In this document: positions 36,812 to 58,020 of the stretch, piece by piece
Layout: every line of letters begins with the position of its first letter
Position numbering within the stretch: the stretch's first letter is position 1
Notes under the pieces: generated by a model
What the model saw: the letters and a program-made list of their open reading frames with translations, nothing else
Told to the model about the DNA's origin: nothing
Databases searched by the model: none
Assembly: GCA_021816935.1 (NCBI GenBank)
Contig: JAKAWR010000002.1
Span: forward strand, 3,039-67,038
Length of the DNA: 64,000 nucleotides
Source of the DNA: Actinomycetes bacterium
GTDB lineage: Bacteria > Actinomycetota > Acidimicrobiia > Acidimicrobiales > JAMCPL01
Reading direction: 5' to 3'
Position numbers and translations under genes: made by a program

Positions 36812-37366
36812 CTATGGACCCTTGCTGCAGTGCGCCTTTGACCAGCTCTTGATAGCAACATTGTCCTGGTTGATCTTCGCCGAGGACACTTGACCGGCCA
36901 ACTGCTTCAACTGCGCAGGCACACTGGTCGGCGGCGGGCTCTCGGGTGGAAGGGTGCCGAAGTACTGCAACTCCTTGGAAAAAATCGGGTACAGTTCGGT
37001 ATACAGGTTGCCCGCATCACTTCTGATCGCCGGGGGAGCAGCCTTTCTCATCGCCGTCAGGTCGGTAAGGATGGTAGCCAGGCCCGTCTTAGCTGCCCGG
37101 ATGGTCTTCGGTGGCACGCCGGCTATCGCTACGTAAGAGGCCTCGGGACGGCAGAATGCCGCGAACTGCTTGTCGAACGAGGTAATCGGCAGAACGCCGG
37201 CACTTGTTGTCGTCGCTTGCCTCGGCGTGGCCGCCGTGGCCGTGGTCGTAGCCGGCTTTGCCCCGTGAGGCGACGCGCAGCCTGGAAGACCTGCCGCCGA
37301 TAGTACTGTCGCCACGAGCATCGCCGCAGTTCCTACCTTGCCTGTCACGGTTCTTGCCATTACCAT
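36812..37366 (-). CDS. small lipoprotein, last gene of pilin-like module A
   Basis: Lipobox ..AAGLPGC|ASP, a Thr/Ala linker, and conserved Cys near both ends of the domain (..FAAFCRPE.. ..WSKAHCSKGP). It is a paralogue by layout of 46570..47346. Confidence 0.6.
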   Translation of the reverse strand: MVMARTVTGKVGTAAMLVATVLSAAGLPGCASPHGAKPATTTATAATPRQATTTSAGVLPITSFDKQFAAFCRPEASYVAIAGVPPKTIRAAKTGLATILTDLTAMRKAAPPAIRSDAGNLYTELYPIFSKELQYFGTLPPESPPPTSVPAQLKQLAGQVSSAKINQDNVAIKSWSKAHCSKGP

Positions 37367-37410
37367 TCCTTAGCTTCATCGACAGGACCGGGCCGGCCTC
37401 AGCCGCCCTG

Positions 37411-38550
37411 TCACGGGTTACCGGAGGGCGCAACAGAACTGATCTGTGCGTCCAATGCCTTGATGATGTTCACGCTCAGCTGGACAGGGAACCTGCCCCC
37501 GAGTGCCACGAAGGTCAACAATACGACCACGCCCCGTGCTGCGAGAACCGCCGCCAGCCTGTCCAGGGAGAACTGGACCAGCCCCGACACCGGTGAGGAT
37601 CCTGCGGTACCAGGGGTGGTCGGCGTGGTCGGGTCCCCCGATATCGTCGAGGTGCTCGGGATCCCCGATGTGGTCGAGGTCGGGTTCCCGGGCGTAGTGG
37701 ATGCGGACCGGGTCGTCCCGGCGGCGGGCGTTCCCGCAGCGGACGATCCGGGTGCACCGGGCAGGTAACCGATCACCGACTCCAGCTCGACGAACGCATC
37801 TCCCATCCGGGGTATCGATACCCGGGTCCATGACTGGCCCAGCTTCGTAGATCCCATCTGACCCGCAGAGTTGAGCGACGCCTGAAGGCACGACAATCCG
37901 CGGGTGCTCCCGAGGGCATTCACGAACGCCACCGCTGCCTGCGGGGGGCCGGCGAGCCAGGCTTCCGTCTGCACCGCCACCTGCATCGGAGATGCTTCGC
38001 CGCCGCCGTTCGGGCTCGTCACAGTGGCAGCGGCTCCCCCCGTGAACCCCGGCATCGAAGATCCCTGGGGGTTGGTATAGCCGAACGCGGGGGACTGGAC
38101 TCCTCCGGGGAACGACACGCCCTTACTGCCGGCACACGAGGCGACTCCGGCGAGTTGGCTGCCGCCCGAGACCGCCGTCTCGGGAAGTGTCTTGGCCGCC
38201 GGTGCGATCACGCTCCACGTTGACGGCACCTCGCTCGACGACAGGATTGCAGCGGCGAGAAGGGGGTTGCTCGTCGTCGTGGCGGGCGGCGTCGCTGCAG
38301 GCTGCGACACCTTGCCATCACCCTTCTTACCTGCGCATTTTCCCGCCCGTAACGCCGGACTTCCGGAGGCGCACGCACGATTTCCCGGCTGTCCTCCCGC
38401 CGAGCGTCCTCCTGCGGAGTGTACTCCTGCCGGCGAACAGGCTGCCTCGATTATCAACAGGACCGTGCCCAGCAGCACCGCAACCACCGTGCCGCCACGG
38501 TGCTGCCGCCTGCGCACCATGAACGGCCTTCTGGCGTACGACGTCTCCAC
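37411..38550 (-). CDS. lipoprotein/secreted protein immediately downstream of the PilX-like giant (module A)
   Basis: N-terminal anchor ..VVAVLLGTVLLIIEAAC|SP. It lies 9 nt after the stop of 38560... Its positional counterpart is 47399..48238. Confidence 0.6.
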   Translation of the reverse strand: METSYARRPFMVRRRQHRGGTVVAVLLGTVLLIIEAACSPAGVHSAGGRSAGGQPGNRACASGSPALRAGKCAGKKGDGKVSQPAATPPATTTSNPLLAAAILSSSEVPSTWSVIAPAAKTLPETAVSGGSQLAGVASCAGSKGVSFPGGVQSPAFGYTNPQGSSMPGFTGGAAATVTSPNGGGEASPMQVAVQTEAWLAGPPQAAVAFVNALGSTRGLSCLQASLNSAGQMGSTKLGQSWTRVSIPRMGDAFVELESVIGYLPGAPGSSAAGTPAAGTTRSASTTPGNPTSTTSGIPSTSTISGDPTTPTTPGTAGSSPVSGLVQFSLDRLAAVLAARGVVVLLTFVALGGRFPVQLSVNIIKALDAQISSVAPSGNP

Positions 38551-38559
38551 GGGCCTGCG

Positions 38560-41500
38560 CTAGCCGCCGGTCACTACCCGGCCGCTTGGAAGCTGGGTCA
38601 TCGTGGCGACGAACCAGGCCGTCGTCGGGCTCGATGCCCCCGCCCCGGCCGACTGCTGGAGGAGGTACGGTGCCGGATCGAACATCTCAGCCGGCGTGTA
38701 AGAGATGTGGACGTTCCTGAAGCCCGACGGCACGTAGCACGCCACCTCGCAACCCCACGCACTTCCGCTGTTCCATCCCTGGAAGAACTCGAAATGGCTC
38801 ATCAGCAGGCCCGCCGAGGCGAAACCGTCGTTGTATTGCTGGATGATCGAACCGACGAACGTGGCTGTGTCAAGCCCATGAACCATTCCGCTCGATTCGG
38901 TCGTGTTCGAGTACGGGAACTCGTTCCCGGACAGGAGGTTCTGGACGGCGACTGACCCGTTCTGGATCACCTGGGGTACCGACGTCGCAGCGCCGGCGCT
39001 GTCGTAAGTGCTCATCTCGACGTTCGGAAGGGAGTTGGACGCAACGATATCGGCATCGACCACTGGGTCGTACACCGCAGGGAACGAGTTGGACGGGCCA
39101 TGCACCCACGTGCTCTCCCAGGTCTGCAGGTTTCCCTCGTAGCCGGCCAGACCACTGCAGAAGCTGCTCAGATCGAGCATGGAGCAGAAATCGAGCAACG
39201 CCCCGCCGCCCAGAGTTCCGTAGGAGAAGTAGTACTCAGCCCACTGCCGGCTGCACGAATCCAGCGGGATGGGGAACGCGAACGCTATGCTGTACGGCGG
39301 TGTGCAGCTCGGAACCGGCGGAGGTGACGGCTTCTTGCTGTTGGCGCTCGGGTTGGTGGTGTAGAGGTTCATCGCCAGACTGTCCGAGGAGACGTGCCAA
39401 TCAGACGCACTGGGCGGGCTCCCGGCCCCGGCATCGAGCGGGCAGGCACCCGTGATGCCGATGATGGACTCGACCTGCGAGCCCAAGCCGCAGTAGTAGC
39501 CCTGCAGCTCGATGGTATAGATGTAGACGAAGATGTCGTAAACGCAATTCGCGAAGTTGGTGATGCTGCAGCTGAGATCGGGCGGGATGATGCTGTTCCC
39601 GGCAATGCTGGGCTCGTCAGGAGGTGTCGGGGCGGTCTTCGCAATCCCGCACCACGAAATACCGGAGCCGGTCACGGGATTGGGAATCGACGGGTTGATT
39701 GTGCAGTTGTTGTCATTCTGCCCGTTCACTACCGGATGGACGATCTCCACATTGCCCTCCGGGTAGTAGGTTCCCGAGCTGTCCTGGAAAGGCTCTCCAA
39801 GCGGGAGGTTCCCGCCTGGGGCCAGGCCGAGTGAGTCTGGGCAATTGTAGGGCACGGTCCTCCCGCCGTTCCCGGCGCAGGCATAGATGACATTACCGCT
39901 TATGTCGATATTGTTATCTGCCGCGATTGTCAAACTGCCGTTCAAAGTACCCTGTACTATCGCGTCACCCCAAGCGCAGTTATGGTGCTGGAGGGGCTCC
40001 CCCTCGTTGGACCCGGTGGAGAAGGGCAGCACGAAGCCTACGGGGAAGTTGGTGCATGACGAGTCGCCACCGGGCAGGTTGTGCACATAGATCACCCCAG
40101 CTGCCGGGAGGGGCATCGCCGTCCCGCTGTTCTCGCCGCTGCAGTTCGATGCATTGGCACCGGTCTGTCCCCACACCAACATGTCACCGCCCGCCTGCAG
40201 CTGGATAAAGGTCGGCCCGTAGAACTGGCAGCCTCCCGACTGCGCTGCAATTGCCGAGAGCTGACTGAAATCGGGCTCCGGAGGCGTCACGACGCCATTC
40301 AGCAAATGCCGGCCCGCAGTGGCGGGAGCCTTGCCGTTGCAGCCGGCAAGAAGGGTCACGTTATATGTGGTACCAAAGATCGGTCCGATGGAGAACCCTA
40401 CCGAGGGAAGGTTCGAGTAGATATACGGATACCACTTCGTGCCCGAGGGTGCCTGAAATTGCGATACTCCTGATGGGTACTTGTTGGCACTGCCGAAGGT
40501 CACGTCCGCTTTCGTCAAGTCAGGCTGACCGCAGACATAGAGTGCATCGTTCGTGTACACCTTCCCGGCAATCGTCGTCTTGAGACCGTAGTAACCGCTG
40601 CCGGCGTCGGTACCGCTGCCAGGTGGGTTGGCAGCCAGGCTCGGGTAGCCCGGAGTGTTCCCCCCCGTCGGCGTGCCGTACAGGTCATTGATGTTGCACA
40701 CGATAGGGAACGGACCGTGCGTCGGTATCGGAGCCAGAACGGCGCTAACAGCACTCAGTATCCCGTTCACGATGTCTTGGCCGATCGGGATGCCGAACAG
40801 GTTGATAGACGAAAGGCCGGCCAGGGACTTCCCGAGCATCTCCTGGACCATGCCGCTCGCCAGTATCTGGCCGATAGGGTTGGTGTCGTAGGCGTGATAG
40901 TTGCAGAAGAGCGCGCCGATCTTGATCAGACCCGTGGGACCGTTCCCGAGCAGCATGTTGATGATGGTTGACATGCTTGGAGGAAGGAGGCCGGAGCTCT
41001 TGGCAAAGTTGACTGCGTCCATCATGAGCTGGAACCACTCGCTGGACGCGTAAGTGTAGGGGCTTGTCGTCTCGTAGTTGGTGAAGAAGGCGTACGACAG
41101 AGCCGCATTCTGCAAGGCGACCTCCTCGGTCGAGTACTGCGTCCACGGAGAGAGACCGGCCCTGCCCACGACAATCAGGTACATCGTGCCCGTGGCCGGG
41201 TTCGACCCGGTCGACCCGGCCACCGCGGCCTGGGCGCCGTCAACCGTGTACGCATAGCCTTCGTTCAGGTTCGCGCTGGAGCCGCTCACAGCCGTCCATG
41301 TACCGTACATCGGCTCGGAATCGCTGCCGAGATCCGTCTTGGATATCGTGGGCAACGGCGGTGCCTGCGTTCCTCCCACATACTGGCCCAGCAATGAAGT
41401 CGCCGAGTTCACGCTGGTGCAGTAATTGGTCGGCAGGAAGAAGGCCGGGTCGCTCGCCGACGGTGACTTGCAAGTCACATCGTTGTACTTCACATAACCG

Positions 41501-41817
41501 GGGTCTTCCTGGAGGCGCGCCATATAAGCCGATACGCCGGATTCTGCAGCCACGGCGGCTGCCTTCTGGTTCTGGACCCGCAAGGTCAGAGGCACGTGCT
41601 GGCTGACGTTGGCGTACAGCACGGCAGGGATCAGTGCGAGCAGCAGCATGACCGCCATCACGGTAAGCATGGCCTGGCCGGCCGGTCCCCGCATCCGCAC
41701 GGCCGCAGCTTCCCGGCCTGCGCGACCGTCCCGGAATCTTCCCACCGCAGTTACCGGACCACCGGCCGGGTAGGTATCACGCATGTTTGGACAACTCCTT
41801 GCAGCCAAGAGCCTCAT
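38560..41817 (-). CDS. giant PilX/GspK-like minor-pilin-type protein (module A), about 1085 aa
   Basis: Hydrophobic N-terminus ..RGPAGQAMLTVMAVMLLLALIPAVLY with no Glu at +5, followed by ..NQKAAAVAAESGVSAYMARL (PilX_N-like). It is Cys-rich with beta-helix-like segments (GDAIVQGTLNGSLTIAADNNIDISGNVIYAC). The ATG at 41817 overlaps the upstream stop (TGATG); the track start is 41931. Confidence 0.72.
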   Translation of the reverse strand: MRLLAARSCPNMRDTYPAGGPVTAVGRFRDGRAGREAAAVRMRGPAGQAMLTVMAVMLLLALIPAVLYANVSQHVPLTLRVQNQKAAAVAAESGVSAYMARLQEDPGYVKYNDVTCKSPSASDPAFFLPTNYCTSVNSATSLLGQYVGGTQAPPLPTISKTDLGSDSEPMYGTWTAVSGSSANLNEGYAYTVDGAQAAVAGSTGSNPATGTMYLIVVGRAGLSPWTQYSTEEVALQNAALSYAFFTNYETTSPYTYASSEWFQLMMDAVNFAKSSGLLPPSMSTIINMLLGNGPTGLIKIGALFCNYHAYDTNPIGQILASGMVQEMLGKSLAGLSSINLFGIPIGQDIVNGILSAVSAVLAPIPTHGPFPIVCNINDLYGTPTGGNTPGYPSLAANPPGSGTDAGSGYYGLKTTIAGKVYTNDALYVCGQPDLTKADVTFGSANKYPSGVSQFQAPSGTKWYPYIYSNLPSVGFSIGPIFGTTYNVTLLAGCNGKAPATAGRHLLNGVVTPPEPDFSQLSAIAAQSGGCQFYGPTFIQLQAGGDMLVWGQTGANASNCSGENSGTAMPLPAAGVIYVHNLPGGDSSCTNFPVGFVLPFSTGSNEGEPLQHHNCAWGDAIVQGTLNGSLTIAADNNIDISGNVIYACAGNGGRTVPYNCPDSLGLAPGGNLPLGEPFQDSSGTYYPEGNVEIVHPVVNGQNDNNCTINPSIPNPVTGSGISWCGIAKTAPTPPDEPSIAGNSIIPPDLSCSITNFANCVYDIFVYIYTIELQGYYCGLGSQVESIIGITGACPLDAGAGSPPSASDWHVSSDSLAMNLYTTNPSANSKKPSPPPVPSCTPPYSIAFAFPIPLDSCSRQWAEYYFSYGTLGGGALLDFCSMLDLSSFCSGLAGYEGNLQTWESTWVHGPSNSFPAVYDPVVDADIVASNSLPNVEMSTYDSAGAATSVPQVIQNGSVAVQNLLSGNEFPYSNTTESSGMVHGLDTATFVGSIIQQYNDGFASAGLLMSHFEFFQGWNSGSAWGCEVACYVPSGFRNVHISYTPAEMFDPAPYLLQQSAGAGASSPTTAWFVATMTQLPSGRVVTGG

Positions 41818-42890
41818 CAGTACATCCCCGCGCCAAAACCGATCGCCAGTGCGACATTGTCCATGGTGACCTCCTGGTGAACCACTGTCGGCGGGCTCTT
41901 CGACACCGCCTCGTCGTTGCATACCTTGCATGCCAGGCTTCGTACCTCAACGCTGAAGTAGACACCAGCCACGCTGTCCGCGTCCGTTGTGCATGCAAGC
42001 CCGTCTCCGCCAGCCGCGGTTTGGCCGGCAAGTTGTGTAGAGGTAAAGGTGCAGTTGTCAGTGTTGCCGTCGGCATTGTTCCCGGCCGCATAACCGTCGA
42101 TATATCCACTGTTGTAAGTGCCTGGTGCCTGTAGGTCCTCATTTGCAAAGATCTGGGGACCTGAACAAGGCGCGAACTGGCCGGGCGAGCCGGCCGAGTC
42201 TCCACCTGTACAGGTCGCCGCCGGTGCCGGCCCGTACACTCCGAATATCTGCGCCAGAATCGCGAGGGGACTGGCGGGTGGCGTCACCGTGGCCGAAGTC
42301 AGCGTTCCACTCGACGTACCGCAAGCTGCAGCCCAGGTAGGGTTGGTGGCACGGCTGTCCGTGAACCAGTTGCCCGCCTCGATGAACGAGAACGGCACCA
42401 CGTCGGCTTCCAGCACGTAGTTCGCGTAGGCCGGGTTCGCTATCGTATGAAAGGCATCGGGCTTAGCGTAAACGTAAACCCATCCTGGCAGATGCTGGGC
42501 CCCGTCGGGCAGGCCCGAATAGAAGATCATCGCGTCCGGACACGCCAGGACCACCGCCGGGTCCCCCGTCATGCCCGGATCTCCTGCACCCTCGAGAACG
42601 GAGTTGAGAGCGTTCCCATCCGCTGCCGGCATCGGTGTGGCCGAGGTGATGAAATGCGCGAGCTCGCTCGTGAGCAAGGTGGCCTGGCTCTGCGCGTCCA
42701 GATCCCGCGATGTCGTGTAAAGCGCGTCCGTGAAGTTGGAAAGCGCAAGGAACACCATGGACATCAGGATCATAAAAATCAGGCTCGCCACCATCAGCTC
42801 GATCAGCGTGAAACCTTCGGCGGTCGTCCCGGCCAGCGGATTGCCCCGTGCCCGCTTGATCGCCCCTAATTGCACGACAACGATCCCCAT
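41817..42890 (-). CDS. prepilin-type N-terminal cleavage/methylation domain protein, PilW-like position (module A)
   Basis: ..KRARGNPLAGTTAEG|FTLIELMVASLIFMILMSMVFLAL is a class III signal with Glu+5. Start is ATG 42890 or GTG 42875; the track ORF starts at 42956. Confidence 0.75.
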   Translation of the reverse strand: MGIVVVQLGAIKRARGNPLAGTTAEGFTLIELMVASLIFMILMSMVFLALSNFTDALYTTSRDLDAQSQATLLTSELAHFITSATPMPAADGNALNSVLEGAGDPGMTGDPAVVLACPDAMIFYSGLPDGAQHLPGWVYVYAKPDAFHTIANPAYANYVLEADVVPFSFIEAGNWFTDSRATNPTWAAACGTSSGTLTSATVTPPASPLAILAQIFGVYGPAPAATCTGGDSAGSPGQFAPCSGPQIFANEDLQAPGTYNSGYIDGYAAGNNADGNTDNCTFTSTQLAGQTAAGGDGLACTTDADSVAGVYFSVEVRSLACKVCNDEAVSKSPPTVVHQEVTMDNVALAIGFGAGMY

Positions 42891-46249: not shown

Positions 46250-46569
46250 TCCGGCCTCCTTCGTCGCGCCGACACTTCCCGGCGTCCACTTCCCGCCGTC
46301 GACGCCCGGGGATCCGGGCTCTGCATGTCACACCGGACCGGCGGGCTTTGCGGATGTCGGGCTCGGCGGGCTCTCGAATTCATTGTCCGCTCCGCTGCGC
46401 CGAACGGCAAGCGGGAAAGCACCCGTTCAATGGGCGAAAATCCTCCCACGTGGAAATGCTGACGGATCCTGCTCGAGCGGTGAACTCCACTACGCATCGC
46501 GTACGGGCCGCGTGTAGGCCACGTACGGACTGCCCCTTCCCGGCGGCTGGAATGCGCTAGACTTCGTAC

Positions 46570-47346: not shown

Positions 47347-47398
47347 GAGCCGCCCGATTCGCTCCCGACGGCAGTTACGGACTCAGGTGGACTCAGGT

Positions 47399-48238: not shown

Positions 48239-48257
48239 ACGATCAGCTCGAGCCGGC

Positions 48258-51200: not shown

Positions 51201-51500
51201 ATTCTCCGTCAGCAGCGAAACGTAGCTATCCATGCCCGTCTGCGCTGCTGCAAGCGCAGCCTTCGAGTTCTGCACGGAAAGAGCGATCGGAATCTGGCCG
51301 GACACCCCGTTGAAGATCACCATGGGCACCAGCGCCAGCACGACGATCAGCATGATAGCCATGATCATCGCCTGCCCTGCCGACTCCCTTGCGCTCGTTG
51401 CCAGCCGGCGAACCGGCCGCCGGCCGAGGCGCGGTCTCGGTCTCGGTACCCCCCCGCGACTTACTACCTGCCGTACTCCCGTAGTCGAAGCCGATCTCAT
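48258..51500 (-). CDS. giant PilX/GspK-like minor-pilin-type protein (module B), 1080 aa
   Basis: ..ARESAGQAMIMAIMLIVVLALVPMVIF..NSKAALAAAQTGMDSYVSLL. It shares long collinear blocks with 38560..41817: ALSY..FTNYET.SP, CNYHAY, GPFP..CN.ND.Y, GPTFIQL, HNC.WGDA.VQGTL.G.LTI.A.N.I...GN.IYACA, CPD.LGLAPGGN and SHFEFF. Confidence 0.72.
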   Translation of the reverse strand: MRSASTTGVRQVVSRGGVPRPRPRLGRRPVRRLATSARESAGQAMIMAIMLIVVLALVPMVIFNGVSGQIPIALSVQNSKAALAAAQTGMDSYVSLLTENISNVSYNDAQCTAPSSGQWDGFYFGSSSSCPSTYKGPNNAYGGWAPVPGSASAGGGLNESYVFRVDTSNASSGYITAKVTGRAGSPGHYRYRTVESNFDNPALSYSYFTNYETSSPFAYTNAAAFTFIEWVVSLVSGSLPASMKSLMSEFLGNGPVGAVKLGFYMCNYHAYQSNTILSLLDSPILTTMVDNEMAQYLKGLASFSIFGYPLGQEMYNSIESAVNSLITDVQTFLGPAYGPFPLLCNVNDMYNGYYGMTTNMSGKVYSNDSLYTCSPSGSTSNLNSATIELTSSKAGILPQYSSSATGPPQSYNPNHSLGNDLFAWSWSGSIPTPWQDYTWDIPILSGCANVTSPPATKTVTSLTPPVPDFEAIRVNASATGGCHYFGPTFIQLNGTSFQAWSPNTPAGSCPTTGGSAAVPSVIYVSNVATGSCIPFSSSSIVPNVYGVSSLPYGIDNLLQNHNCLWGDALVQGTLSGKLTIGASNDIVVTGNLIYACAASTNPPGTPVPASCPDTLGLAPGGNIELVNPATDANGTYYPQGNVVVVHPVDASQNDNNCPASSSVVNGAGWNPGGSTNPCAGWEQGDPGTGGTPEPNSVPLPPVSPLSAPSGSCAAWNVATWGTCFEDAMYDISTWAYGVEYKDFCGVNAPSNGNGSISSPVTRASASESTCTVTSLEDNWANTNTNAPAPPARPAHPTCNNWNVSFSFNWTAILSGNWSQAWNDFIAGILDSCGGQWLSYYYDYGAMGLSAGIQDICNVLGISPCDGGYEAVLQKYESTFTHGPVNPFSSVYNPTVDALVLASNSSPMVSASSSESSTMDYPNLGIVNGSFTLQNPTVGNVYATPISDTTSYWDCGSQPTGNTVNLCPYGQGSFSGGTHGLGTLTTVGSVVEQYANSLQNAGLSLSHFEFFPGGVGGLLGGYPSGCQYACFVPSGYKTVDFSYDPSELLNPPPYLLSSAGSPWTEMSGSYVETAVPASLQP

Positions 51501-51576
51501 CCGGCACTCACCTCCAACTCAATCGTTTCCCGGGAAATCGCATTCTGCACCAACGCTTCATCCATGGTGCCGTCCA

Positions 51577-52596
51577 TCAGAAGCCTCCTGCTCCGAAGCC
51601 TGACGCCGATGCGATGTTCTGCAATACGACCTGTTCGCTGACCGTCACGGGTGCGCCGGCGGCCGAAACCGCCCCCTGCACGTTCCGGAAGCGCTGCATC
51701 CTCACGTCGAAGCCGATCGCATCGATGTTCTGCGGGAAGTCTCCACTCGTCCCGCTGGTACCCGTCAGATTGCCGCCGGTGGCACCGGACCAGTAGGTGA
51801 AAAGCGGCAACGACGACAGCTCGGAACAACTCGGACAGCTGAACGTGTACGGATTGGGGGCGAACACCACATCGGGGACATCAGCCACGATCTTCGCGCT
51901 CGATCCCCAAGACGAAGGAAGGAAACCCGCACCGCCCGAGCAACTGGCCGGAGCCGCTGACGGCGGGCTGCTGCTCGGTCCGTTCGGGCTTACGTACGCG
52001 TGCAGGGTGTACTCCGTCCGCTCCAGAAGCGGCGTCGTCACCTGGTTCCATGTGCCCGGATTGGCCCAGCTACTCGTCACCACGTTTCCGCTGGAGTCCG
52101 TGAGGTACAGGTAGACCCAGGTCCCACCCAACGCTTCCGGCGGTTCCGAGTACAGGATCGCTTCGTAAGGACATGCCAGCCAAACCGCAGTACCCGGAGC
52201 TGTGCCCCAATTGATCACCGGTGGCGCCGGGACGACCGCGGCGCGCAGCAAAGGCGGGATCGACGAGAGGGCCTGCTCTCCGTCCCCGAGGCCGGTGAGC
52301 GTCCTCATGGACACGGCCTGGTTCTGGAGGTACGCCCCCGCAGTCACGAGAACCATGGCAATGACGATGAGGAAGATGAAGCTTGCCACCATCAGTTCTA
52401 TCAGGGTGAAACCGCCGTCGACGCCCGGGGAGCGCCCCCCGTCAGCACATACCTCCACCGGTTGCCCGGCACGCTGCAATAGGCGCCGGAAACGCGCATC
52501 GTGTGCTACTCGCTGCGGCAGCATGCCTCGCCTGCAAGGCAGGCTACTCGCTCGCGCGTCACCGGAAAGCACGCGTACGGATCCATCTGGACTCAC
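51577..52596 (-). CDS. prepilin-type N-terminal cleavage/methylation domain protein, PilW-like position (module B)
   Basis: ..SPGVDGG|FTLIELMVASFIFLIVIAMVLVTAG (Glu+5). A possible GTG start at 52458 would give a 16-aa leader. Confidence 0.72.
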   Translation of the reverse strand: MSPDGSVRVLSGDARASSLPCRRGMLPQRVAHDARFRRLLQRAGQPVEVCADGGRSPGVDGGFTLIELMVASFIFLIVIAMVLVTAGAYLQNQAVSMRTLTGLGDGEQALSSIPPLLRAAVVPAPPVINWGTAPGTAVWLACPYEAILYSEPPEALGGTWVYLYLTDSSGNVVTSSWANPGTWNQVTTPLLERTEYTLHAYVSPNGPSSSPPSAAPASCSGGAGFLPSSWGSSAKIVADVPDVVFAPNPYTFSCPSCSELSSLPLFTYWSGATGGNLTGTSGTSGDFPQNIDAIGFDVRMQRFRNVQGAVSAAGAPVTVSEQVVLQNIASASGFGAGGF

Positions 52597-52632
52597 ACTG
52601 ACATTATCGGGGCTTGCCCTCCGTGTGTCTAG

Positions 52633-52689
52633 TACGTGAAACTACCCGTATGCAGGCAGGCGACCTACGCATTCGGGTGATTTCACGTA
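52633..52689. promoter_or_regulatory. 9-bp inverted repeat in the AT-richer divergent promoter region of module B
   Basis: tacgtgaaa (52633-52641) and tttcacgta (52681-52689), between the divergent genes 51577..52596 (-) and 52854..56756 (+). Confidence 0.35.
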
Positions 52690-52853
52690 TAGACTTACTT
52701 ACGTCACTCCCAGCATAATCGTTATGTGTGGGTTAATTCGATTTGCGGTCACGACCACAGACGCCGTGTCGCGTTGTCGCTTCCGGCAACCGCGGGTGGC
52801 CCCGGTGAACGTGAACGTAGGCTGCACCCGCTCGGCACGGAGCGCCCGTCGGC

Positions 52854-55800
52854 ATGGATGACCATCGGGAAGGCCGCAACCGGGAAGCTGCCGGCATGAC
52901 CCGGTCGCGCTCTTCGCTCCCTGTCCGGAGGCTGCGCCTACGCCAGAGCGAGGGGATGACCCTCGTAGAGGTGCTTATCGCCATCTTCCTGATCGTCATG
53001 GTACTTGCGCCGGCTGCCGCCCTCCTGACAAATGAGATCGGTGTGACCCAGTCCACGAAGCACCGCACGGTGGCTGCCGGCTTGGCCACCTCTACCCTCA
53101 ACTGTACCGAGGCAAGTCATCTGTCGCAGTTGGAAGGCCAGCTGGGCATCGACAGCAGCGGCCTCACATATACCCCCCCACCGGCCTCCCAACAGGCCCC
53201 CTGCACCCTGAATCTCGGCTCCCAGTACGAGGTAGCGGGATCTCCCGGCACCACCCGCTGGGGATCATCGACAACGAACACCGCCGGCACCCCGTGCCAG
53301 AGCGGCGCTGCCGGTCCGGGCCTGCCCAACCTTTACGACAGCACTGCGTGCGTTCAGGAGACCGACTCCGTCTCGAACTCGGGCATCAACCTCGAGCGAA
53401 CGCAGACGATGCAATTCGTCACTGCGGCATCCGGAGGGGGCGAGACCATCCCGGTCAAGAACACCTGCTACGGCGGAACATTGAACAACAGTCCTCCCAT
53501 CATGCTGGAGACCACCACCACGGTGTCCTGGCCGCAGCACGGCAAGGCCGCGGGAACGCCCGGGGCAGCCGCCACGGCCCAGTCGCGCCTCTTCACCCCC
53601 TCTCAGATCGACGTCGAAGTGTACAGCACGTCTGCAACGCCTCCGGGCCCATACAACGGAGCGTCGGTGACCATAAGCGGGCCGACGACCATGAGCACCC
53701 TCGTTACGGGCACGACCGGGTGCGTGTCGTTCGTCGGGATCGCCCAGGGCAACTACACCGTTACGGCAAAGAGCGGGTCGACGACGCTCGGATCGCAGGG
53801 CGTCGACGTGACCCCGGGGAGTATCCACGGCATAGTTATCATGACTGCCACCAACTGCACCACACTCGGCAACTGCCCCGCCCCGCCGGGGGGACCGCCG
53901 GTCGTCGACGGTATTTACCCCACCGAAGGCCCCATCGCCGGGGGGAACACCGTTTACATCTGCGGCAATAACTTCAGTGACGGAAGCGCCGGGACCACCA
54001 CGACGGTATCGAGCGTCTTCTTCGGCGCCGACAGCGACCCTAACCGCCAGGCAGCCCAGTACACGCTCCTCGGCAGCGTTCCCACCGAGGTTACGGACAA
54101 CATGTCGACCTGCGACCCGGGCGCTTCGACACCGCTTCAGGTGCTGCAGGTCACAGCGCCGGCGTGGGCGGACGCCAGCCAGCCGGGTGGTGGCAACGTC
54201 AACGTCGTGGTGGCAAACTCGGTCGGCGAGGCGTCGAACCAGCCGTTGTACACATACACAGCCCTGCCCATCATCTACACGATCTCGGAGAACCAGTGCA
54301 CACCCACTCCGTCGGGTTGCGTGACAAACAGCATCCCGACGGGCTGGAACTGCTCTTCGAGCACGGATTGCTACAACCCCTGCTTCCCGGCGGCGTCTGC
54401 GTGCGGACCGGTAGGAACCGCATCGGGAGGCCAGTTCCTGGAACTCTACGGCTATAACTTCTCAGGGGTCAACAACGTCGCGTTCTGCATCTTCCTCCCG
54501 TCGCCGCCATCGTCGGGAGGGCAGCCCTTCGCCGGGATCGGACCAAACATCTATTCGGGTACGCTGTCGGGCCTCAACCCCAGCAATGCGACCACCGAGC
54601 AGCAGCAGCTCTTCCAGAACGGCAACAACTCGAACTGCGGGCTCGTCGATGCCACTTTCCAGGTCCAGAGCGACTCCGAGATAACCCTCCAGACGCCGTC
54701 GGACTGGTTCTACTGCCCGATCGGGAACCCCGGCCTCTACGTCAGCTACTTCAACTTCTGCACCGGCCTCGACATCCCCGAGAACTCCGCCCACAACTAC
54801 GCTGCCCTTTTCGTGACCAGCCAGTACACGAGCCAGTCCGGCCAGTCCGCAGGCAGCAGCTGCAGTACCGCCGGTTCCTGCACATTGAACGTCTCTCCCG
54901 CAGGCGGTACCCAGGGCTGTCCCGAAACCAATACCTACCCGGCACCCCCGGCGCCCTACCTGCCCGCCATCGGGAACGGCGTCACGTGCTGGTACCATTT
55001 CGATTCCCAGGGCGAGCCGCCCATCAATTACACCGACAACGCCTGCGACGCCGCCGGCAACCCGCTCGGCTACTGCCTCCTCGATACGGACGAGGCGGCT
55101 GACGGGACCGGGATACTCAACACCGACACCGTCGACCCGTACACCTGGACCGACAACGCTTGCGACATGGGCCAAGAGAACGGATGGACGGTAGGGGGAA
55201 CGTGTGCGAGCGAGCCGGACGGAGACGGGGTCGAACCGCCGCCCACCTATTCGGACAACCAGTGCGACGCCGCCGGCAACCCGCTCGGGTGGTGCTACAC
55301 CGACACCGATGCTCTGGCCGATGCTACGAGCACCGGCAACGGTGACGCCACCGACCAAGTCAACTGGACCGACAACGCCTGTGACGCCGCGGGCAACCCG
55401 GGGTGGGCGGGCTGCAACGGGAACGAACCGCCGAATGGTTCCGACGGGGACGGCGAGTACCAGATCTGGAGCAACGAACCTGGTATCAACTGGAGCGACG
55501 ACCTCGCTTGCGACGCCAACGGCAACCCCAGTTGGTGCAACACCGACAGCGACGGGTTGGCCGATTCCACGGGCACCGGCAACGGTGACGCCACCGACCA
55601 AGTCAACTGGACCGACAACGCCTGTGACGCCGCGGGCAACCCGGGGTGGGCGGGCTGCAACGGGAACGAACCGCCGGGAGGATGCGACGAGTGCTATTGG
55701 GGTGAGTACGAGTACCAGATCTGGACAGGCGAGCCGGGCACCAGCTGGGACGACAATACCTGCGACGCAGCCAACAACGGAGCGCTTTCCGGGTGCCAGG

Positions 55801-56756
55801 ACGCATGGGCGGATAACAAGGATGGCAACGACGGCGAGTCGTGCAGTTGGGGCAGTGGGGACTGCTGGGACTTTACCACCGGCGAAGACAATGACGCCGG
55901 AAGCGAAGGGATCAACTGGTACGAGGACAACACCTGTGACGCCGCGGGCAACCCCGGGAACGGTATCTGCAACGGGAACGAGGGCCCCTGGTCCCAGGAT
56001 GGAGACGAGTACCAGGTCTGGACCGGCGAGCCCGGCGTCAACTGGGACGACAACGCCTGCGACGCCGCTGGTAACCCCGGCGGGTTTGGCGGCCCGTGCT
56101 ACCCCTGGGCCCCGGGCAGCGAAGCGTCAGCGGACGGGAGCGGGATCCTCAACACCGACGTCGTCGATCCGGGAGCCTGGAACGACAACGCCTGCGACAT
56201 GGCCGGATCGAGCTCGGGAGCTTGCTCGTTCAATACCGAAGGTCCCTGGTCCCACGACGGCGACGAGACGCTGATCTGGACGGGCGAGCCCGGCGTCAAC
56301 TGGGACGACAACGCCTGCGACGCCGCTGGTAACCCCGGCGGGCTCCTCGGCCCGTGCTACCCCGACATCCCGGGCACCGAAGCGTCAGCGGACGTGACCG
56401 GGATCCTCAACACCGACGTCACCGAAACCATCAACTGGACCGACCCTGCGTGCGACTATGCCGGCAACCCTGGAGGGCACGGCTGTGCCGCCGAGAACGA
56501 CGGTGACGAGACCTACGAGACCAATGAGTCCATCAACTGGCACGATGACAACGCCTGCGACGCGGTCGGCAATCCGCTCGGGTGGTGCCTCCTCTACACG
56601 GACGAGGCGGCTGACGGTACCGGAACCGCCAACTCGGATGCCACCGATCCGTACACCTGGACCGACAATGCCTGCGACATGGCGAGCAACACGACTTCTC
56701 CCTGTGCGACAGAGCCTGACGGCGACGAGACCTACGCCAGCAATCCCGTCCCGTAG
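52854..56756 (+). CDS. giant prepilin-type protein, PilV-like (module B), with CarboxypepD_reg-like and IPT/TIG-like domains and a C-terminal array of Cys/Asp/Asn-rich repeats
   Basis: ..RLRLRQSEG|MTLVEVLIAIFLIVMVL (Glu+5). The likely start is ATG 52896, giving a 20-aa leader. ..GCVSFVGIAQGNYTVTA.., GPIAGGNTVYICGNNF, then about 14 copies of W-x-D-(N/D)-x-C-D-A-A-G-N-P-x(2-6)-C. Confidence 0.75.
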   Translation: MDDHREGRNREAAGMTRSRSSLPVRRLRLRQSEGMTLVEVLIAIFLIVMVLAPAAALLTNEIGVTQSTKHRTVAAGLATSTLNCTEASHLSQLEGQLGIDSSGLTYTPPPASQQAPCTLNLGSQYEVAGSPGTTRWGSSTTNTAGTPCQSGAAGPGLPNLYDSTACVQETDSVSNSGINLERTQTMQFVTAASGGGETIPVKNTCYGGTLNNSPPIMLETTTTVSWPQHGKAAGTPGAAATAQSRLFTPSQIDVEVYSTSATPPGPYNGASVTISGPTTMSTLVTGTTGCVSFVGIAQGNYTVTAKSGSTTLGSQGVDVTPGSIHGIVIMTATNCTTLGNCPAPPGGPPVVDGIYPTEGPIAGGNTVYICGNNFSDGSAGTTTTVSSVFFGADSDPNRQAAQYTLLGSVPTEVTDNMSTCDPGASTPLQVLQVTAPAWADASQPGGGNVNVVVANSVGEASNQPLYTYTALPIIYTISENQCTPTPSGCVTNSIPTGWNCSSSTDCYNPCFPAASACGPVGTASGGQFLELYGYNFSGVNNVAFCIFLPSPPSSGGQPFAGIGPNIYSGTLSGLNPSNATTEQQQLFQNGNNSNCGLVDATFQVQSDSEITLQTPSDWFYCPIGNPGLYVSYFNFCTGLDIPENSAHNYAALFVTSQYTSQSGQSAGSSCSTAGSCTLNVSPAGGTQGCPETNTYPAPPAPYLPAIGNGVTCWYHFDSQGEPPINYTDNACDAAGNPLGYCLLDTDEAADGTGILNTDTVDPYTWTDNACDMGQENGWTVGGTCASEPDGDGVEPPPTYSDNQCDAAGNPLGWCYTDTDALADATSTGNGDATDQVNWTDNACDAAGNPGWAGCNGNEPPNGSDGDGEYQIWSNEPGINWSDDLACDANGNPSWCNTDSDGLADSTGTGNGDATDQVNWTDNACDAAGNPGWAGCNGNEPPGGCDECYWGEYEYQIWTGEPGTSWDDNTCDAANNGALSGCQDAWADNKDGNDGESCSWGSGDCWDFTTGEDNDAGSEGINWYEDNTCDAAGNPGNGICNGNEGPWSQDGDEYQVWTGEPGVNWDDNACDAAGNPGGFGGPCYPWAPGSEASADGSGILNTDVVDPGAWNDNACDMAGSSSGACSFNTEGPWSHDGDETLIWTGEPGVNWDDNACDAAGNPGGLLGPCYPDIPGTEASADVTGILNTDVTETINWTDPACDYAGNPGGHGCAAENDGDETYETNESINWHDDNACDAVGNPLGWCLLYTDEAADGTGTANSDATDPYTWTDNACDMASNTTSPCATEPDGDETYASNPVP
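55331..55676. repeat. 103-bp perfect direct repeat, two copies 243 bp apart, inside the Cys/Asp repeat array
   Basis: caccggcaacggtgacgccaccgaccaagtcaactggaccgacaacgcctgtgacgccgcgggcaacccggggtgggcgggctgcaacgggaacgaaccgccg occurs at 55331-55433 and 55574-55676. A second 60-bp perfect pair lies at 56025-56084 and 56283-56342. Confidence 0.9.
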
Positions 56757-56943
56757 ACCATCCGTTCCCGTACCTGTACTGGGAAGTTGGCAACACCTGG
56801 TCGGGATTCGACCAGGCCGAAACAGGGTCGGCAATAGGATGCTGCCTCCCTGCGTGAACAGGATCAGGCAGGCGGCTCGTGGTGGGCAGGATCAAAGAAG
56901 TGCACGTCGTTGATCATGCCCGGATGGTAAAGTTACTGGAGGC

Positions 56944-58020
56944 ATGGGAGCTCCGACAAATCACCAACCCGAAAGGACTGAGATGAGCGAAATGGTATCG
57001 ACTACGCGAAGGGACTCGACGGGTTCTCGCCCGGCGGCACCTTCATCGATCACGCCGCTACCTCCCGCTGGAAGGGTGCTCGCGCCGGTTCTCCTGGCTG
57101 TCACAGTATCCCTGCTGGCGGCGGCATGCACTTCCACGGGAGCAATCAGCAACGCCGCAAAGTACCTCTCGCATATCCGTCACGCCGGGGCGGCCACGAT
57201 AGCGGGATCCACCGCAGGAGTGGCACTCCAGGTAAGCATAGGGGGAAGTGGCACCCTGCCTATCGACCAGGGGGAGATCGACCTTGCACATGGTCTTACA
57301 TCGATAGCCGCTGTCGCCAAACCTCCCGGCTCGTCCACCCCGGCGACCATCAGGGGGGTGGATACGCCTACCGTGATCTACCAGGAGCTTCTATCGAACT
57401 ACGCCCCAAAGGGGCTCAAGCAGCCGCTTCCGGCGCTGCTCGGCGGTAAGACCTGGGAGCAGCTGACGTCCACCCTCGGCTCTTCGGGCATCCAGGGCAA
57501 CGCCCAGTACTTTAACAGCGAGATCTACAACCCGTTCTGGCTGCTGTCGACCCTCGGTGGCGCATCTGCTCCCGTAAAAGACCTCGGGTCGTCAACCGTC
57601 GGGACCGTCAGCGCGACCCATTACAGCTTCCGGGTCAACCTGCAGGCTGCGGCTGCGAGCTCCCAGGCGGTCAAAGCCGGTCTCGGGCCCATCATGTCCG
57701 ACGAGGCCGCCTTTCTCGGGGTAGCGACTTTCCCCGCGCAGGTATGGCTCGACAACCAGGGGCGTGTCGTGCAGCTGTTCGTCACGCTGACCTTTCCGTC
57801 GAGCAAGTACGAGACGGCCGTCAAGACGCGGCCAGCGGCAACGGTAGAGCTCATCCTGTCGGGCTACGGCTCGCCGATCTCGCCGATTTCCGTACCGCCC
57901 GCATCGTCGGTGGCCACTGCTCAGCAGGTCAACCAGGTTGAGGCCGCAGCACAGAGCGCGACACCCCCCTCGACCACCAGCTCCAGCTCGCCGTCGCCCG
58001 GCACCGGAAGCGGCGGCTGA
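56944..58020 (+). CDS. lipoprotein of unknown function
   Basis: Lipobox ..SLLAAAC|TSTG and a globular domain ending ..FPAQVWLDNQGRVVQLFVTLTFPS.. plus a Ser/Pro tail. It is loosely LppX/LprG-like in layout (my impression only). Confidence 0.6.
   Translation: MGAPTNHQPERTEMSEMVSTTRRDSTGSRPAAPSSITPLPPAGRVLAPVLLAVTVSLLAAACTSTGAISNAAKYLSHIRHAGAATIAGSTAGVALQVSIGGSGTLPIDQGEIDLAHGLTSIAAVAKPPGSSTPATIRGVDTPTVIYQELLSNYAPKGLKQPLPALLGGKTWEQLTSTLGSSGIQGNAQYFNSEIYNPFWLLSTLGGASAPVKDLGSSTVGTVSATHYSFRVNLQAAAASSQAVKAGLGPIMSDEAAFLGVATFPAQVWLDNQGRVVQLFVTLTFPSSKYETAVKTRPAATVELILSGYGSPISPISVPPASSVATAQQVNQVEAAAQSATPPSTTSSSSPSPGTGSGG

What the first reader, a model, noticed from the sequence alone, without database searches (positions are those of the whole stretch)
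36812..58020. Two paralogous modules of hugely inflated type-IV-pilin-like proteins (PilV-PilW-PilX order) with no pilus machinery in sight
Seen in sequence: four ORFs carry a class III (prepilin) signal with Gly-1 and Glu+5. These are G|FTLIELMVA (41817..42890 and 51577..52596), G|MTLIEVVVAL (42866..46249) and G|MTLVEVLIAI (52854..56756). Two ORFs of about 1100 aa (38560..41817 and 48258..51500) have a hydrophobic N-terminus AGQAM(L/I).. without Glu+5, followed by an A-rich ..AAESG/AAQTG.. helix. Established knowledge: that is how PilX/GspK-type tip pseudopilins look, and V-W-X is the gene order of the fimU-pilVWXY1E minor-pilin operon. Ordinary minor pilins are about 150-250 aa; these are 1127, 379 and ~1085 aa, and 1300, 339 and 1080 aa. 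Module A is one tightly coupled minus-strand operon: a 10-25 nt overlap, then TGATG at 41815-41819, then a 9-nt gap to a lipoprotein. In module B the PilV-like gene has been flipped to the divergent strand. I recognise no PilB/PilT ATPase, PilC platform, PilD peptidase or PilMNO in the 64 kb. Inference: these are self-contained priming or tip-complex modules carrying large adhesin or enzyme payloads, for a filament system encoded elsewhere, in what looks like a monoderm actinobacterium. To my knowledge Tad/Flp pili are the described type IV filaments in that group. Duplication of the whole module suggests alternative tips.
Basis: partly seen in the sequence, partly recalled or inferred. Interest (0 to 1): 0.9.

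Follow-up and report, generated by a model that had tools for sequence, protein, structure and literature searches.

The report
Two giant type IV minor-pilin modules
An uncultured actinobacterium carries two old, diverged copies of a five-gene set that most likely builds the tip of a type IV pilus; the parts are several times larger than usual, but the design is a variant of something already known.

Summary
The window has exactly four prepilin motifs, all at the N-termini of the ORFs named. It has two about 1,080-aa proteins with a Gly-Gln-Ala hydrophobic N-terminus lacking Glu+5. It has no pilus machinery. The two modules are ancient paralogues (X 35%, V 26%, W 23% identity).

Each module is really five genes: V-W-X plus two conserved lipoproteins.

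The giant X protein is rare: 7 clusters among 5.8 billion proteins, and 3 of 185,579 species genomes, all MAGs. It is an inflated member of a broad family of about 550-aa proteins (458 clusters at E<=1e-10). Some of those relatives pass Pfam PilX_N, and the one whose locus I read sits in a compact V-W-X triad.

In two relatives the module lies next to, or about 14 kb from, a complete type IV pilus cluster: PilB, MshEN-PilT, PilC, PilM-N, PilO-like and 200-aa pilins.

The best reading is two alternative sets of priming or tip minor pilins for a pilus encoded elsewhere. [quoted passage not shown]

Unproven: machinery in this genome, and the fold of X, which had no significant structural match.

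Verdict: new variant of a known kind, moderate interest.

The parts
42866..46249 (-). V-A: 1127-aa modular pilin. Class III signal (ERG|MTLIEVVVA), then a pilin-like region, a CarboxypepD_reg domain (232-302) and IPT/TIG repeats.
   Evidence: Pfam N_methyl 23.0 bits (GA 21.2), TIG E=1.7e-14, CarboxypepD_reg 31.9 bits. 32% identical over about 1,200 aligned positions to the V gene of L011.
41817..42956 (-). W-A: pilin of 357 aa (as called in ENA, start 42890) or 379 aa (longest ORF). Signal AEG|FTLIELMVA.
   Evidence: N_methyl 25.4 bits. Family alignment A5 has an invariant GFTL.E, LACPDA and a C-terminal NVA..GFGAG motif. The A5 profile hits only type IV pilins in the PDB.
38560..41817 (-). 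X-A: about 1,085-aa PilX-like protein (1,074 aa as called). N-terminus AG|QAMLTVMAV without Glu+5. Its start overlaps the W-A stop (TGATG).
37411..38550 (-). Lipo1-A: predicted lipoprotein, 9 nt downstream of X-A.
   Evidence: Lipobox-type Cys. Aligns with the gene in the same position in L011, L008 and L009 and with module B. Weak pairwise match to Lipo1-B, E=4e-4.
36812..37366 (-). Lipo2-A: predicted lipoprotein, last gene of module A.
   Evidence: Aligns with the gene in the same position in L011, L004, L008 and L009. E=1e-8 to Lipo2-B.
52854..56756 (+). V-B: 1300-aa modular pilin (SEG|MTLVEVLIA) with CarboxypepD_reg and TIG domains. The C-terminal about 600 aa holds at least 13 copies of a Cys/Asp/Asn-rich repeat of about 40 aa. 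Transcribed divergently from W-B.
   Evidence: N_methyl 20.1 bits (just below GA 21.2). TIGR02523 N-terminus E=2.9e-5. TIG E=4.4e-9. 26% identical to V-A over about 700 aa, E=3e-33. Repeats.
51577..52596 (-). W-B: pilin of 315 aa (as called) or 339 aa (longest ORF). Signal DGG|FTLIELMVA.
   Evidence: N_methyl 26.5 bits, TIGR02532 22.5 bits. Colinear with W-A at 23% identity, E=9e-6. 38% identical to the W gene of L008/L009.
48258..51500 (-). X-B: 1080-aa PilX-like protein. N-terminus AG|QAMIMAIML without Glu+5.
   Evidence: AlphaFold2 model: pLDDT 72.7, a 59-residue N-terminal helix, then four beta strands, a helical bundle and a beta-rich body.
47399..48238 (-). Lipo1-B: predicted lipoprotein downstream of X-B.
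   Evidence: 30-32% identical to the gene in the same position in L008/L009. Alignment A3.
46570..47346 (+). Lipo2-B: predicted lipoprotein on the opposite strand. The ENA gene call keeps only 47005-47346.
   Evidence: E=1e-8 to Lipo2-A over 137 aa. Alignment A2. Gene calls.
52597..52853 (.). Divergent intergenic region between W-B and V-B, with one promoter-like site facing each way.
   Evidence: Sites at 52631-52603 (-) and 52690-52719 (+). These are consensus matches only: 3 found against 1.9 expected in the scanned region.

Best explanation
These are two anciently duplicated sets of minor pilins for a type IV (T4a-like) pilus of a monoderm actinobacterium. The motor, platform, peptidase and major pilin are encoded outside this window.

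Proposed mechanism (steps 1, 2, 4 and 5 are inferred):
1. V and W are cut after the conserved Gly by a prepilin peptidase.
2. X has the same kind of N-terminal helix but no Glu+5, as in GspK/PilX. It takes the apical position. W and V dock beneath it through their N-terminal helices, forming a priming complex on the PilC/PilM-N/PilO platform.
3. Major pilins of about 200 aa (seen in relatives) then polymerise underneath.
4. The filament therefore carries at its tip the about 1,000-residue body of X and the Ig-like (CarboxypepD_reg + IPT/TIG) stalk of V. These most likely act as a tip plug and adhesin.
5. Two diverged modules (23-35% identity, with different V payloads) would give one machine two alternative tips or filaments.
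6. The two lipoproteins that always follow X are module-specific partners of unknown role.
For: Shown:
- Class III signal motifs pass or nearly pass the curated Pfam/NCBIfam thresholds in V and W of both modules.
- The W-family profile hits only type IV pilins in the PDB.
- All three genes are paralogous between the modules.
- The five-gene order is conserved in relatives.
- In MAG GCA_027387655.1 the module is flanked on one side by two classical pilins (G|FTLIELMVVLLIMGILMAIA). On the other side lie a PilO-like gene, a PilM-N fusion, PilC, MshEN-PilT and PilB.
- In MAG GCA_021801795.1 the module and a similar cluster lie about 14 kb apart on one contig.
- X is a member of a family of at least 458 clusters (E<=1e-10).
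- In that family the N-termini read (D/E)xG.A(L/M)... followed by QD..AALAAAEAG.
- 14 of 75 members pass Pfam PilX_N at E<=0.01, best 1.3e-7.
- One compact member sits in a 469/212/534-aa V-W-X triad.
- The X model starts with a 59-residue helix followed by four beta strands.
- Its best PDB hit, though not significant, is the tip pilin ComZ.

Precedent: ComZ (PMC6561018), modular pilins (PMC8179133), two priming sets in cyanobacteria (bioRxiv 10.64898/2026.02.12.705559).
Against: - No peptidase, ATPase, platform or major pilin lies in the 64 kb. I could not establish that this genome has them.
- The window's X proteins do not pass PilX_N or GspK models themselves (E=0.69 and 0.15).
- No significant structural match was found for X, whole or truncated.
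- Each module has only three pilin-like proteins: no FimU/GspH-like fourth and no PilY1.
- The leaders upstream of the cleavage Gly are long if the first start codons are used.
- How a tip complex of about 2,500-2,700 residues would cross the peptidoglycan of a monoderm is unexplained.
Confidence: 0.68

Rival explanations
1. Filament-independent surface display. V, W and X are processed like pilins but stay anchored in the membrane by their N-terminal helices, perhaps as a short stub. Together with the two lipoproteins they form a cell-surface adhesin or enzyme complex rather than the tip of a long retractile pilus.
For: - No machinery or major pilin in 64 kb.
- The very large ectodomains look hard to push through a wall.
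- Dedicated lipoproteins are conserved in the module, which would suit a membrane-proximal complex.
- The modules sit among other large secreted or anchored repeat proteins.
Against: In the two relatives with long contigs the module is linked to a full pilus cluster that includes a PilT-type ATPase and major pilins. The V-W-X order and the Glu+5 pattern match priming complexes.
Confidence: 0.15
2. Pseudopilus of a secretion system. The modules prime a short type II-like or Hps-like pseudopilus that exports polysaccharide or protein rather than an adhesive pilus.
For: Weak N-terminal matches of V and W to GspH, GspI, GspG and the cyanobacterial HpsC pseudopilin (E 0.001-0.2). GspK is the only model that touches X-A (E=0.15). 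In cyanobacteria the expanded PilX subfamily is tied to polysaccharide secretion (bioRxiv 10.64898/2026.02.12.705559).
Against: All those matches cover only the shared N-terminal helix and are far below the curated cut-offs. The relatives' clusters contain a PilT-like ATPase and PilM-N/PilO, typical of retractile T4a pili. No polysaccharide genes adjoin the modules in the window.
Confidence: 0.1
3. Not pilins at all. The N-termini are ordinary signal anchors and the resemblance is chance or compositional.
For: The regular expression alone is not very specific in 128,000 codons. X fails the pilin profiles.
Against: - Three of four motifs pass the curated N_methyl threshold.
- GFTL.E is invariant across the W family.
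- All 18 PDB hits of the W profile are type IV pilins.
- Relatives are linked to pilus machinery.
Confidence: 0.03

Closest known systems
Cyanobacterial core minor-pilin sets (FimT-PilW-PilV-PilX, Com and EPS types) with beta-solenoid PilX / HpsA (bioRxiv 10.64898/2026.02.12.705559)
   Same: - Two diverged minor-pilin sets in one genome, proposed to prime two different filaments on one machine.
- PilX is greatly enlarged and proposed to replace PilY1 as tip plug or adhesin.
- PilV and PilX subfamilies co-vary.
- The sets need not sit beside the machinery.
   Different: - Three pilin-like genes per set here, not four.
- The host is a monoderm actinobacterium.
- V is also giant (1,127-1,637 aa, Ig-like repeats).
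- Two conserved lipoproteins belong to the module.
- No sequence or significant structural similarity between X and these proteins was shown here.
ComZ-PilA2 of Thermus thermophilus (PDB 6QVI; PMC6561018)
   Same: A tip pilin with a hydrophobic N-terminal helix and a large extra domain, encoded next to a partner minor pilin. ComZ chains are the top-ranked PDB hits for the X model (ranks 1, 2 and 4).
   Different: The match is not significant (E=0.13, TM 0.11-0.19) and vanished with the truncated model. X is twice as long. A DNA-binding role is not implied.
GspK / PilX tip pseudopilins (NF037980, PF14341)
   Same: N-terminal hydrophobic helix after a Gly, no Glu+5, last pilin gene of the set. 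The X model has a helical bundle placed after the first beta strands, as GspK does. Relatives of X pass PilX_N.
   Different: The window proteins themselves score E=0.15 (GspK) and 0.69 (PilX_N). They are about 1,080 aa against about 200-330 aa. No fold match was obtained.
Modular type IV pilins such as Streptococcus sanguinis PilB/PilC (PMC8179133)
   Same: V-A and V-B are a pilin module with functional domains grafted on, in a monoderm. Such pilins are expected at the filament tip and to act in adhesion.
   Different: At 1,127-1,300 aa here, and up to 1,637 aa in a relative, they exceed the 860-residue protein that survey singled out as its most extreme multi-domain case. The payload is a string of CarboxypepD_reg/IPT-TIG domains, plus in V-B a Cys/Asp-rich repeat array with no family.
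Pseudomonas fimU-pilVWXY1E operon
   Same: V-W-X gene order and tight coupling.
   Different: No FimU, PilY1 or PilE. None of the equivalog models is passed.

Membership tests
Type IV pilins (class III signal peptide, PF07963 / TIGR02532) | N-terminal motif: Gly-1, hydrophobic +1, Glu+5, about 20 hydrophobic residues, scored above the curated cut-off | tested here: met
   PF07963 scores are 25.4, 23.0 and 26.5 bits (GA 21.2) for W-A, V-A and W-B. V-B scores 20.1, just below. TIGR02532 passes for W-A, V-A and W-B. X lacks Glu+5.
Type IV pilins (class III signal peptide, PF07963 / TIGR02532) | Pilin fold: long alpha1 helix packed on an antiparallel beta sheet | tested here: inconclusive
   The X-B model has a 59-residue helix then four strands, but no significant Foldseek hit. 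V was not modelled.
Type IV pilins (class III signal peptide, PF07963 / TIGR02532) | Cleavage and N-methylation by a prepilin peptidase, and assembly by a PilB/PilC machine encoded in the same genome | not testable with these tools
   None in the 64 kb. Walking off the window failed. Relatives have PilB, PilT, PilC, PilMN and PilO beside the module. A more distant 71% GC MAG, in which no V-W-X module was seen, has an A24 peptidase in its pilus cluster.
PilX / GspK tip minor pilins (PF14341, NF037980) | Match to the PilX_N or GspK profile | tested here: not met
   X-B scores PilX_N E=0.69. X-A scores GspK E=0.15, 11.6 bits against a cut-off of 130. Indirect support: 14 of 75 members of the wider X family pass PilX_N at E<=0.01, best 1.3e-7.
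PilX / GspK tip minor pilins (PF14341, NF037980) | Pilin-type N-terminus without Glu+5, encoded last in the minor-pilin set | tested here: met
   AG|QAMLT and AG|QAMIM, with invariant G-Q-A in alignment A1. The V-W-X order is seen in the window, L011 and L027.
Core minor-pilin operon fimU-pilVWXY1E / GspHIJK | Four core minor pilins, including a FimU/GspH-type one | tested here: not met
   Only four prepilin motifs in the window, two per module, plus X.
Core minor-pilin operon fimU-pilVWXY1E / GspHIJK | PilY1-type beta-propeller adhesin | tested here: not met
   No PilY1 domain in any module or flanking protein.
Core minor-pilin operon fimU-pilVWXY1E / GspHIJK | Equivalog-level match of V to PilV and of W to PilW/GspJ | tested here: not met
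   TIGR02523 scores 24.6 bits against a cut-off of 52.2 for V-B. All other matches are far below cut-off and cover only the N-terminal helix.
ComZ-like / cyanobacterial PilX with inserted beta-solenoid | Pilin fold interrupted by a triangular beta-solenoid | tested here: inconclusive
   ComZ 6qvi chains rank 1, 2 and 4, but with E 0.13-1.6 and TM 0.11-0.19. The truncated model gave no pilin hit.
Modular pilins (pilin module plus grafted domain) | N-terminal pilin signature plus a domain not specific to pilus biology | tested here: met
   V-A and V-B have N_methyl + CarboxypepD_reg + IPT/TIG. The same holds in L011, and in L015, whose prepilin N-terminus is read from the sequence rather than from the profile.
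Verru_Chthon cassette pilin-like proteins | Match to TIGR02596 and related models | tested here: not met
   E=0.35, 10.9 bits against a cut-off of 70, for W-A only.

The most novel reading that the evidence does not exclude
The roughly 1,000-residue body of X is a fold with no solved relative. The five-gene module (V, W, X and two dedicated lipoproteins, about 2,500-2,700 residues of pilin-anchored protein) would then be an undescribed kind of giant tip complex in monoderm bacteria. Its assembly or passage through the wall would need the lipoproteins. Alternatively, it works as a pilin-rooted surface machine without a long filament.
Probability: 0.2. Interest if true: 0.75.

Novelty: new variant of a known kind. 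Interest (0 to 1): 0.5.

Why it matters
Non-Tad type IV pili of Actinobacteria are barely studied, and their minor pilins seem not to have been described. This locus, with its compact relatives, defines what looks like the actinobacterial priming set: a PilV-like pilin carrying Ig-like domains, a PilW-like pilin and a PilX_N-type protein.

It also shows an extreme case in which the tip proteins reach 1,100-1,600 residues and come in two diverged sets. That supports, in a second phylum and a monoderm envelope, the recent idea that one pilus machine can be primed by alternative tip complexes.

It raises a concrete physical question: how does a tip of this size get through a Gram-positive wall? 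It also gives a family of at least 458 clusters that current Pfam/NCBIfam models mostly miss.

Tried and rejected
- **Walking off the window to find machinery.** Look-ups with window proteins 58263-59267 and 59290-59811 returned only short contigs.
- **Finding this genome's ATPase through homologues of a relative's MshEN-PilT.** None of the best 120 sits on the 267,169-bp parent contig. Two candidates belonged to other MAGs: GCA_021820665.1 (71% GC) and GCA_021831845.1.
- **Organism names.** Exact-match cluster look-ups gave none.
- **Foldseek.** The whole and truncated X models against PDB and BFVD gave nothing at E<=0.001.
- **PDB sequence search with the X profile.** Nothing.
- **JGI metagenome scan with the X profile.** No relative.
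- **Tandem Repeats Finder on V-B.** No DNA-level repeat, although the protein repeat is clear.
- **Rfam on the window.** No hit.
- **Rejected as parts of the system.** The conserved neighbours at 59290-62786 (a 4-TM protein, a Rossmann-like cytoplasmic protein and a YVTN/lactonase-type propeller lipoprotein). They recur near modules in L003 and L015 but show no pilus feature.
Full report
**1. What is in the sequence**

The window is 64% G+C with an actinobacterial-type gene content: a his operon at 20.4-26.0 kb, acyl-CoA dehydrogenase, ABC transporter and MeaB.

A six-frame scan for a Gly-1 / Glu+5 prepilin motif followed by hydrophobic residues finds exactly four sites.

| Protein | Pfam N_methyl (GA 21.2 bits) |
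|---|---|
| W-A, 41817-42956 | 25.4 |
| V-A, 42866-46249 | 23.0 |
| W-B, 51577-52596 | 26.5 |
| V-B, 52854-56756 | 20.1 |

V-B also matches the N-terminus of TIGR02523 (PilV) at E=2.9e-5, below that model's cut-off.

The two large V proteins carry a CarboxypepD_reg domain and IPT/TIG domains after the pilin region.

The two X proteins (38560-41817 and 48258-51500) begin with ..AG|QAM(L/I).. and a hydrophobic stretch without Glu+5. They have no significant Pfam or NCBIfam match: PilX_N E=0.69 and GspK E=0.15.

- V-A and W-A overlap by 25 nt if W-A starts where the ENA gene call puts it.
- W-A's stop and X-A's ATG share TGATG.
- The next gene starts 9 nt after X-A.

**2. The two modules are old paralogues, and each has five genes**

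| Pair | Identity | Extent | E-value |
|---|---|---|---|
| X-A / X-B | 35% | end to end | 8e-166 |
| V-A / V-B | 26% | first ~700 residues | 3e-33 |
| W-A / W-B | 23% | colinear, shared C-terminal ..NVA..GFGAG.. | 9e-6 |

So the duplication is ancient, not recent.

After X each module has two predicted lipoproteins.
- Lipo1: 37411-38550 and 47399-48238.
- Lipo2: 36812-37366 and, on the opposite strand, 46570-47346.
- Lipo2-A and Lipo2-B match at E=1e-8.
- Both lipoproteins align with genes in the same position in relatives.
- None has a known domain.

In module B, both V and Lipo2 are inverted. The 257-bp W-B/V-B spacer holds one promoter-like site facing each way, but these are consensus matches only.

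**3. No machinery in the window**

Pfam scans of 30 flanking ORFs found no T2SSE, T2SSF, PilM/N/O or A24 peptidase.

I ran a tblastn of PilB, MshEN-PilT, PilT, PilC, PilM-N, PilO-like, A24 peptidase and major pilins from relatives against all six frames. Nothing scored better than E about 0.02. The pilin queries hit only the N-termini of W-A and W-B.

**4. Relatives**

The giant X protein is rare.
- A search of 5.8 billion proteins gave only seven clusters besides a spurious one. Two of them are the window's own X-A and X-B.
- A scan of one genome for each of 185,579 species found three, all MAGs. They are labelled Actinomycetota bacterium FK_Sedi_A_Bin.95, Actinomycetes bacterium FK3.bin57 and Acidimicrobiales bacterium clean1777.
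- A JGI metagenome scan found none.

The window lies on a 267,169-bp NCBI contig. A fragmentary conspecific MAG, GCA_027414435.1, is 100% identical over 3,474 nt.

The genomic context of relatives is the decisive evidence.

In GCA_027387655.1 (L011) the gene order is:
1. a 206-aa pilin;
2. a 508-aa multi-spanning membrane protein;
3. a 198-aa pilin;
4. V (1,344 aa: N_methyl + CarboxypepD_reg + 5 TIG);
5. W (348 aa);
6. X (1,076 aa);
7. Lipo1 and Lipo2;
8. a PilO-like protein;
9. a PilM-N fusion;
10. PilC;
11. an MshEN-domain PilT-type ATPase;
12. PilB.

Both small pilins read G|FTLIELMVVLLIMGILMAIA.

In FK3.bin57 (65% G+C, the closest in composition) the order is W-X-V, with V at 1,637 aa and nine TIG domains. 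The cluster PilB, MshEN-PilT, PilC, PilM-N, a 226-aa gene in the PilO position and a 199-aa pilin starts about 14 kb downstream on the same contig.

L003 has a classical 211-aa pilin 0.75 kb after X.

**5. X belongs to a much larger family**

A profile of the ten full-length X proteins was searched against 1.84 billion representatives. It found 1,023 proteins at E<=0.001 and 458 at E<=1e-10.

- Nearly all are 520-620 aa.
- They match the N-terminal about 200 positions, a central block (GPTxI..VIYV.N...GDA.V.G.L.G.LTIAA.N.I..TG) and a short C-terminal motif.
- Their N-termini are of the PilX_N kind: acidic residues, Gly, then A(L/M)(I/V).V.., then ..QD..AALAAAEAG.
- Of 75 members scanned one by one, 14 pass Pfam PilX_N at E<=0.01 (best 1.3e-7) and 10 touch DUF4900. 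The only other family matched is DUF5763, by a single member at E=0.0062.
- One compact member (534 aa) sits in an operon after a 469-aa protein (G|FGMVEVLVA + CarboxypepD_reg) and a 212-aa pilin (G|FSLIEMVVA).

So V-W-X, with a PilV-like pilin bearing an Ig-like domain, recurs at much smaller size in at least this one relative of the wider family. The window holds its most inflated form. How general the triad is across the family was not measured.

**6. Structure**

- AlphaFold2 on X-B with 86 sequences gave mean pLDDT 72.7 and pTM 0.71.
- Its order of elements is a 59-residue N-terminal helix, four beta strands (160-211), a helical bundle (223-333), a beta-rich body of short strands (348-625) and a mixed C-terminal region.
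- That order is what a GspK-like pilin with inserted domains would give, but Foldseek found nothing significant.
- The top PDB hits were chains of the Thermus tip pilin ComZ, at E=0.13-1.6 and TM 0.11-0.19.
- A second model of residues 38-700 (pLDDT 75.9) matched nothing in PDB or BFVD.
- I therefore treat the pilin fold of X as unproven, and its body as having no detectable structural relative with these tools.
- The W-family profile hits 18 PDB sequences, all type IV pilins, through the N-terminal helix only.

**7. Interpretation**

The best-supported reading (confidence about 0.68) is two alternative sets of priming or tip minor pilins for a T4a-like pilus whose machinery lies elsewhere in the genome.

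- Shown: pilin signatures, paralogy, conserved five-gene order, linkage to pilus clusters in relatives, and transitive PilX_N membership.
- Inferred: cleavage by a peptidase, X on top of W and V, display of the X body and the V Ig-like stalk at the tip, and use of two modules for two kinds of tip or filament.

Rivals are a filament-independent, pilin-anchored surface complex (0.15), a secretion pseudopilus (0.1) and chance resemblance (0.03).

**8. Comparison with what is known**

- Modular pilins are widespread. The survey found more than 1,200 proteins in 264 architectures, and its most extreme multi-domain example was 860 residues (PMC8179133).
- ComZ is a tip pilin with a roughly 380-residue beta-solenoid inserted into a GspK-like fold, and it pairs with the adjacent PilA2 (PMC6561018).
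- A 2026 preprint reports that cyanobacteria have two core minor-pilin sets that prime two distinct filaments. All their PilX homologues carry a bulky beta-solenoid, proposed to replace PilY1 (bioRxiv 10.64898/2026.02.12.705559).
- Type IV pili are known on Actinoplanes zoospores and inferred in Rubrobacter (PMC8325347).

What is different here:
- the monoderm actinobacterial host;
- three rather than four pilin-like genes per set;
- both V and X being giant;
- two dedicated lipoproteins;
- a body of X with no family or fold match.

**9. Verdict**

This is a real feature, correctly observed and in the main correctly interpreted. It is a new variant of a known kind rather than a new kind of system. 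Interest is 0.5.

The main open points are whether this genome encodes the machinery, what X looks like, and how such a tip crosses the wall.

Noticed in passing
window 7645-9858 (+) and 9916-12336 (-): Two convergent genes encode 737- and 806-aa proteins. They are built of repeats of about 45 aa (NG..W..Q.LP....L.GVSC.S..FCEAVG) with a C-terminal membrane anchor and no significant Pfam domain. They are about 29% identical to the 1,334-aa Sortilin/BNR + TIG protein that lies downstream of the pilin module in L008/L009.
   Followed up: partly
window 59290-62786 (-): Three genes recur next to pilin modules in L003 and L015 at 34-64% identity: a 173/183-aa 4-TM protein, a 530-aa protein with a GGGIG Rossmann-like N-terminus, and a 461-aa YVTN/lactonase-type beta-propeller lipoprotein. 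In those loci a NosD/beta-helix protein is also nearby. Whether this is a functional link or only synteny is unknown.
   Followed up: partly
window 54900-56756 (+), C-terminal about 600 aa of V-B: At least 13 copies of a repeat of about 40 aa (..NW(T/D)DNACDAAGNP...C...D.D..), each with a Cys pair and rich in Asp/Asn/Gly. The whole protein has 154 D+E against 19 K+R and 56 Cys. There is no Pfam match and no DNA-level tandem repeat. It looks like a calcium-binding array, but this is only a guess.
   Followed up: partly
window 28806-29663 (-): A 285-aa ORF with four tandem copies of VAELVEVSKRHDEHLAELDRN and no Pfam hit.
   Followed up: no
window 46570-47346: The public gene call splits this stretch into a 113-aa gene (47005-47346, +) and a 115-aa gene (46644-46991, -). 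The 258-aa + strand ORF has a lipobox and matches Lipo2-A at E=1e-8, so the 258-aa + strand ORF reads better than the split call.
   Followed up: yes
L011 19223-20935 (-), L021 10001-11776 (+), L019 10001-11851 (+): The pilus clusters of the relatives carry, next to PilB, a second ATPase of about 570-620 aa with an N-terminal MshEN domain. NCBI names homologues of it PilT/PilU family. This hints at c-di-GMP control of retraction or extension in this lineage.
   Followed up: no
L011 2004-3530 (+): A 508-aa multi-spanning membrane protein with no Pfam match sits between the two major-pilin genes of the relative. It is a candidate pilin-modifying enzyme, but this was not tested.
   Followed up: no
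window 56944-58020 (+) and 58263-59267 (-): Two further predicted lipoproteins flank V-B. The first gives a sub-threshold match to the SCO4651 lipoprotein family (44.2 bits, cut-off 65).
   Followed up: no
window 1-64000: No Rfam family reaches its gathering score anywhere in the window.
   Followed up: yes
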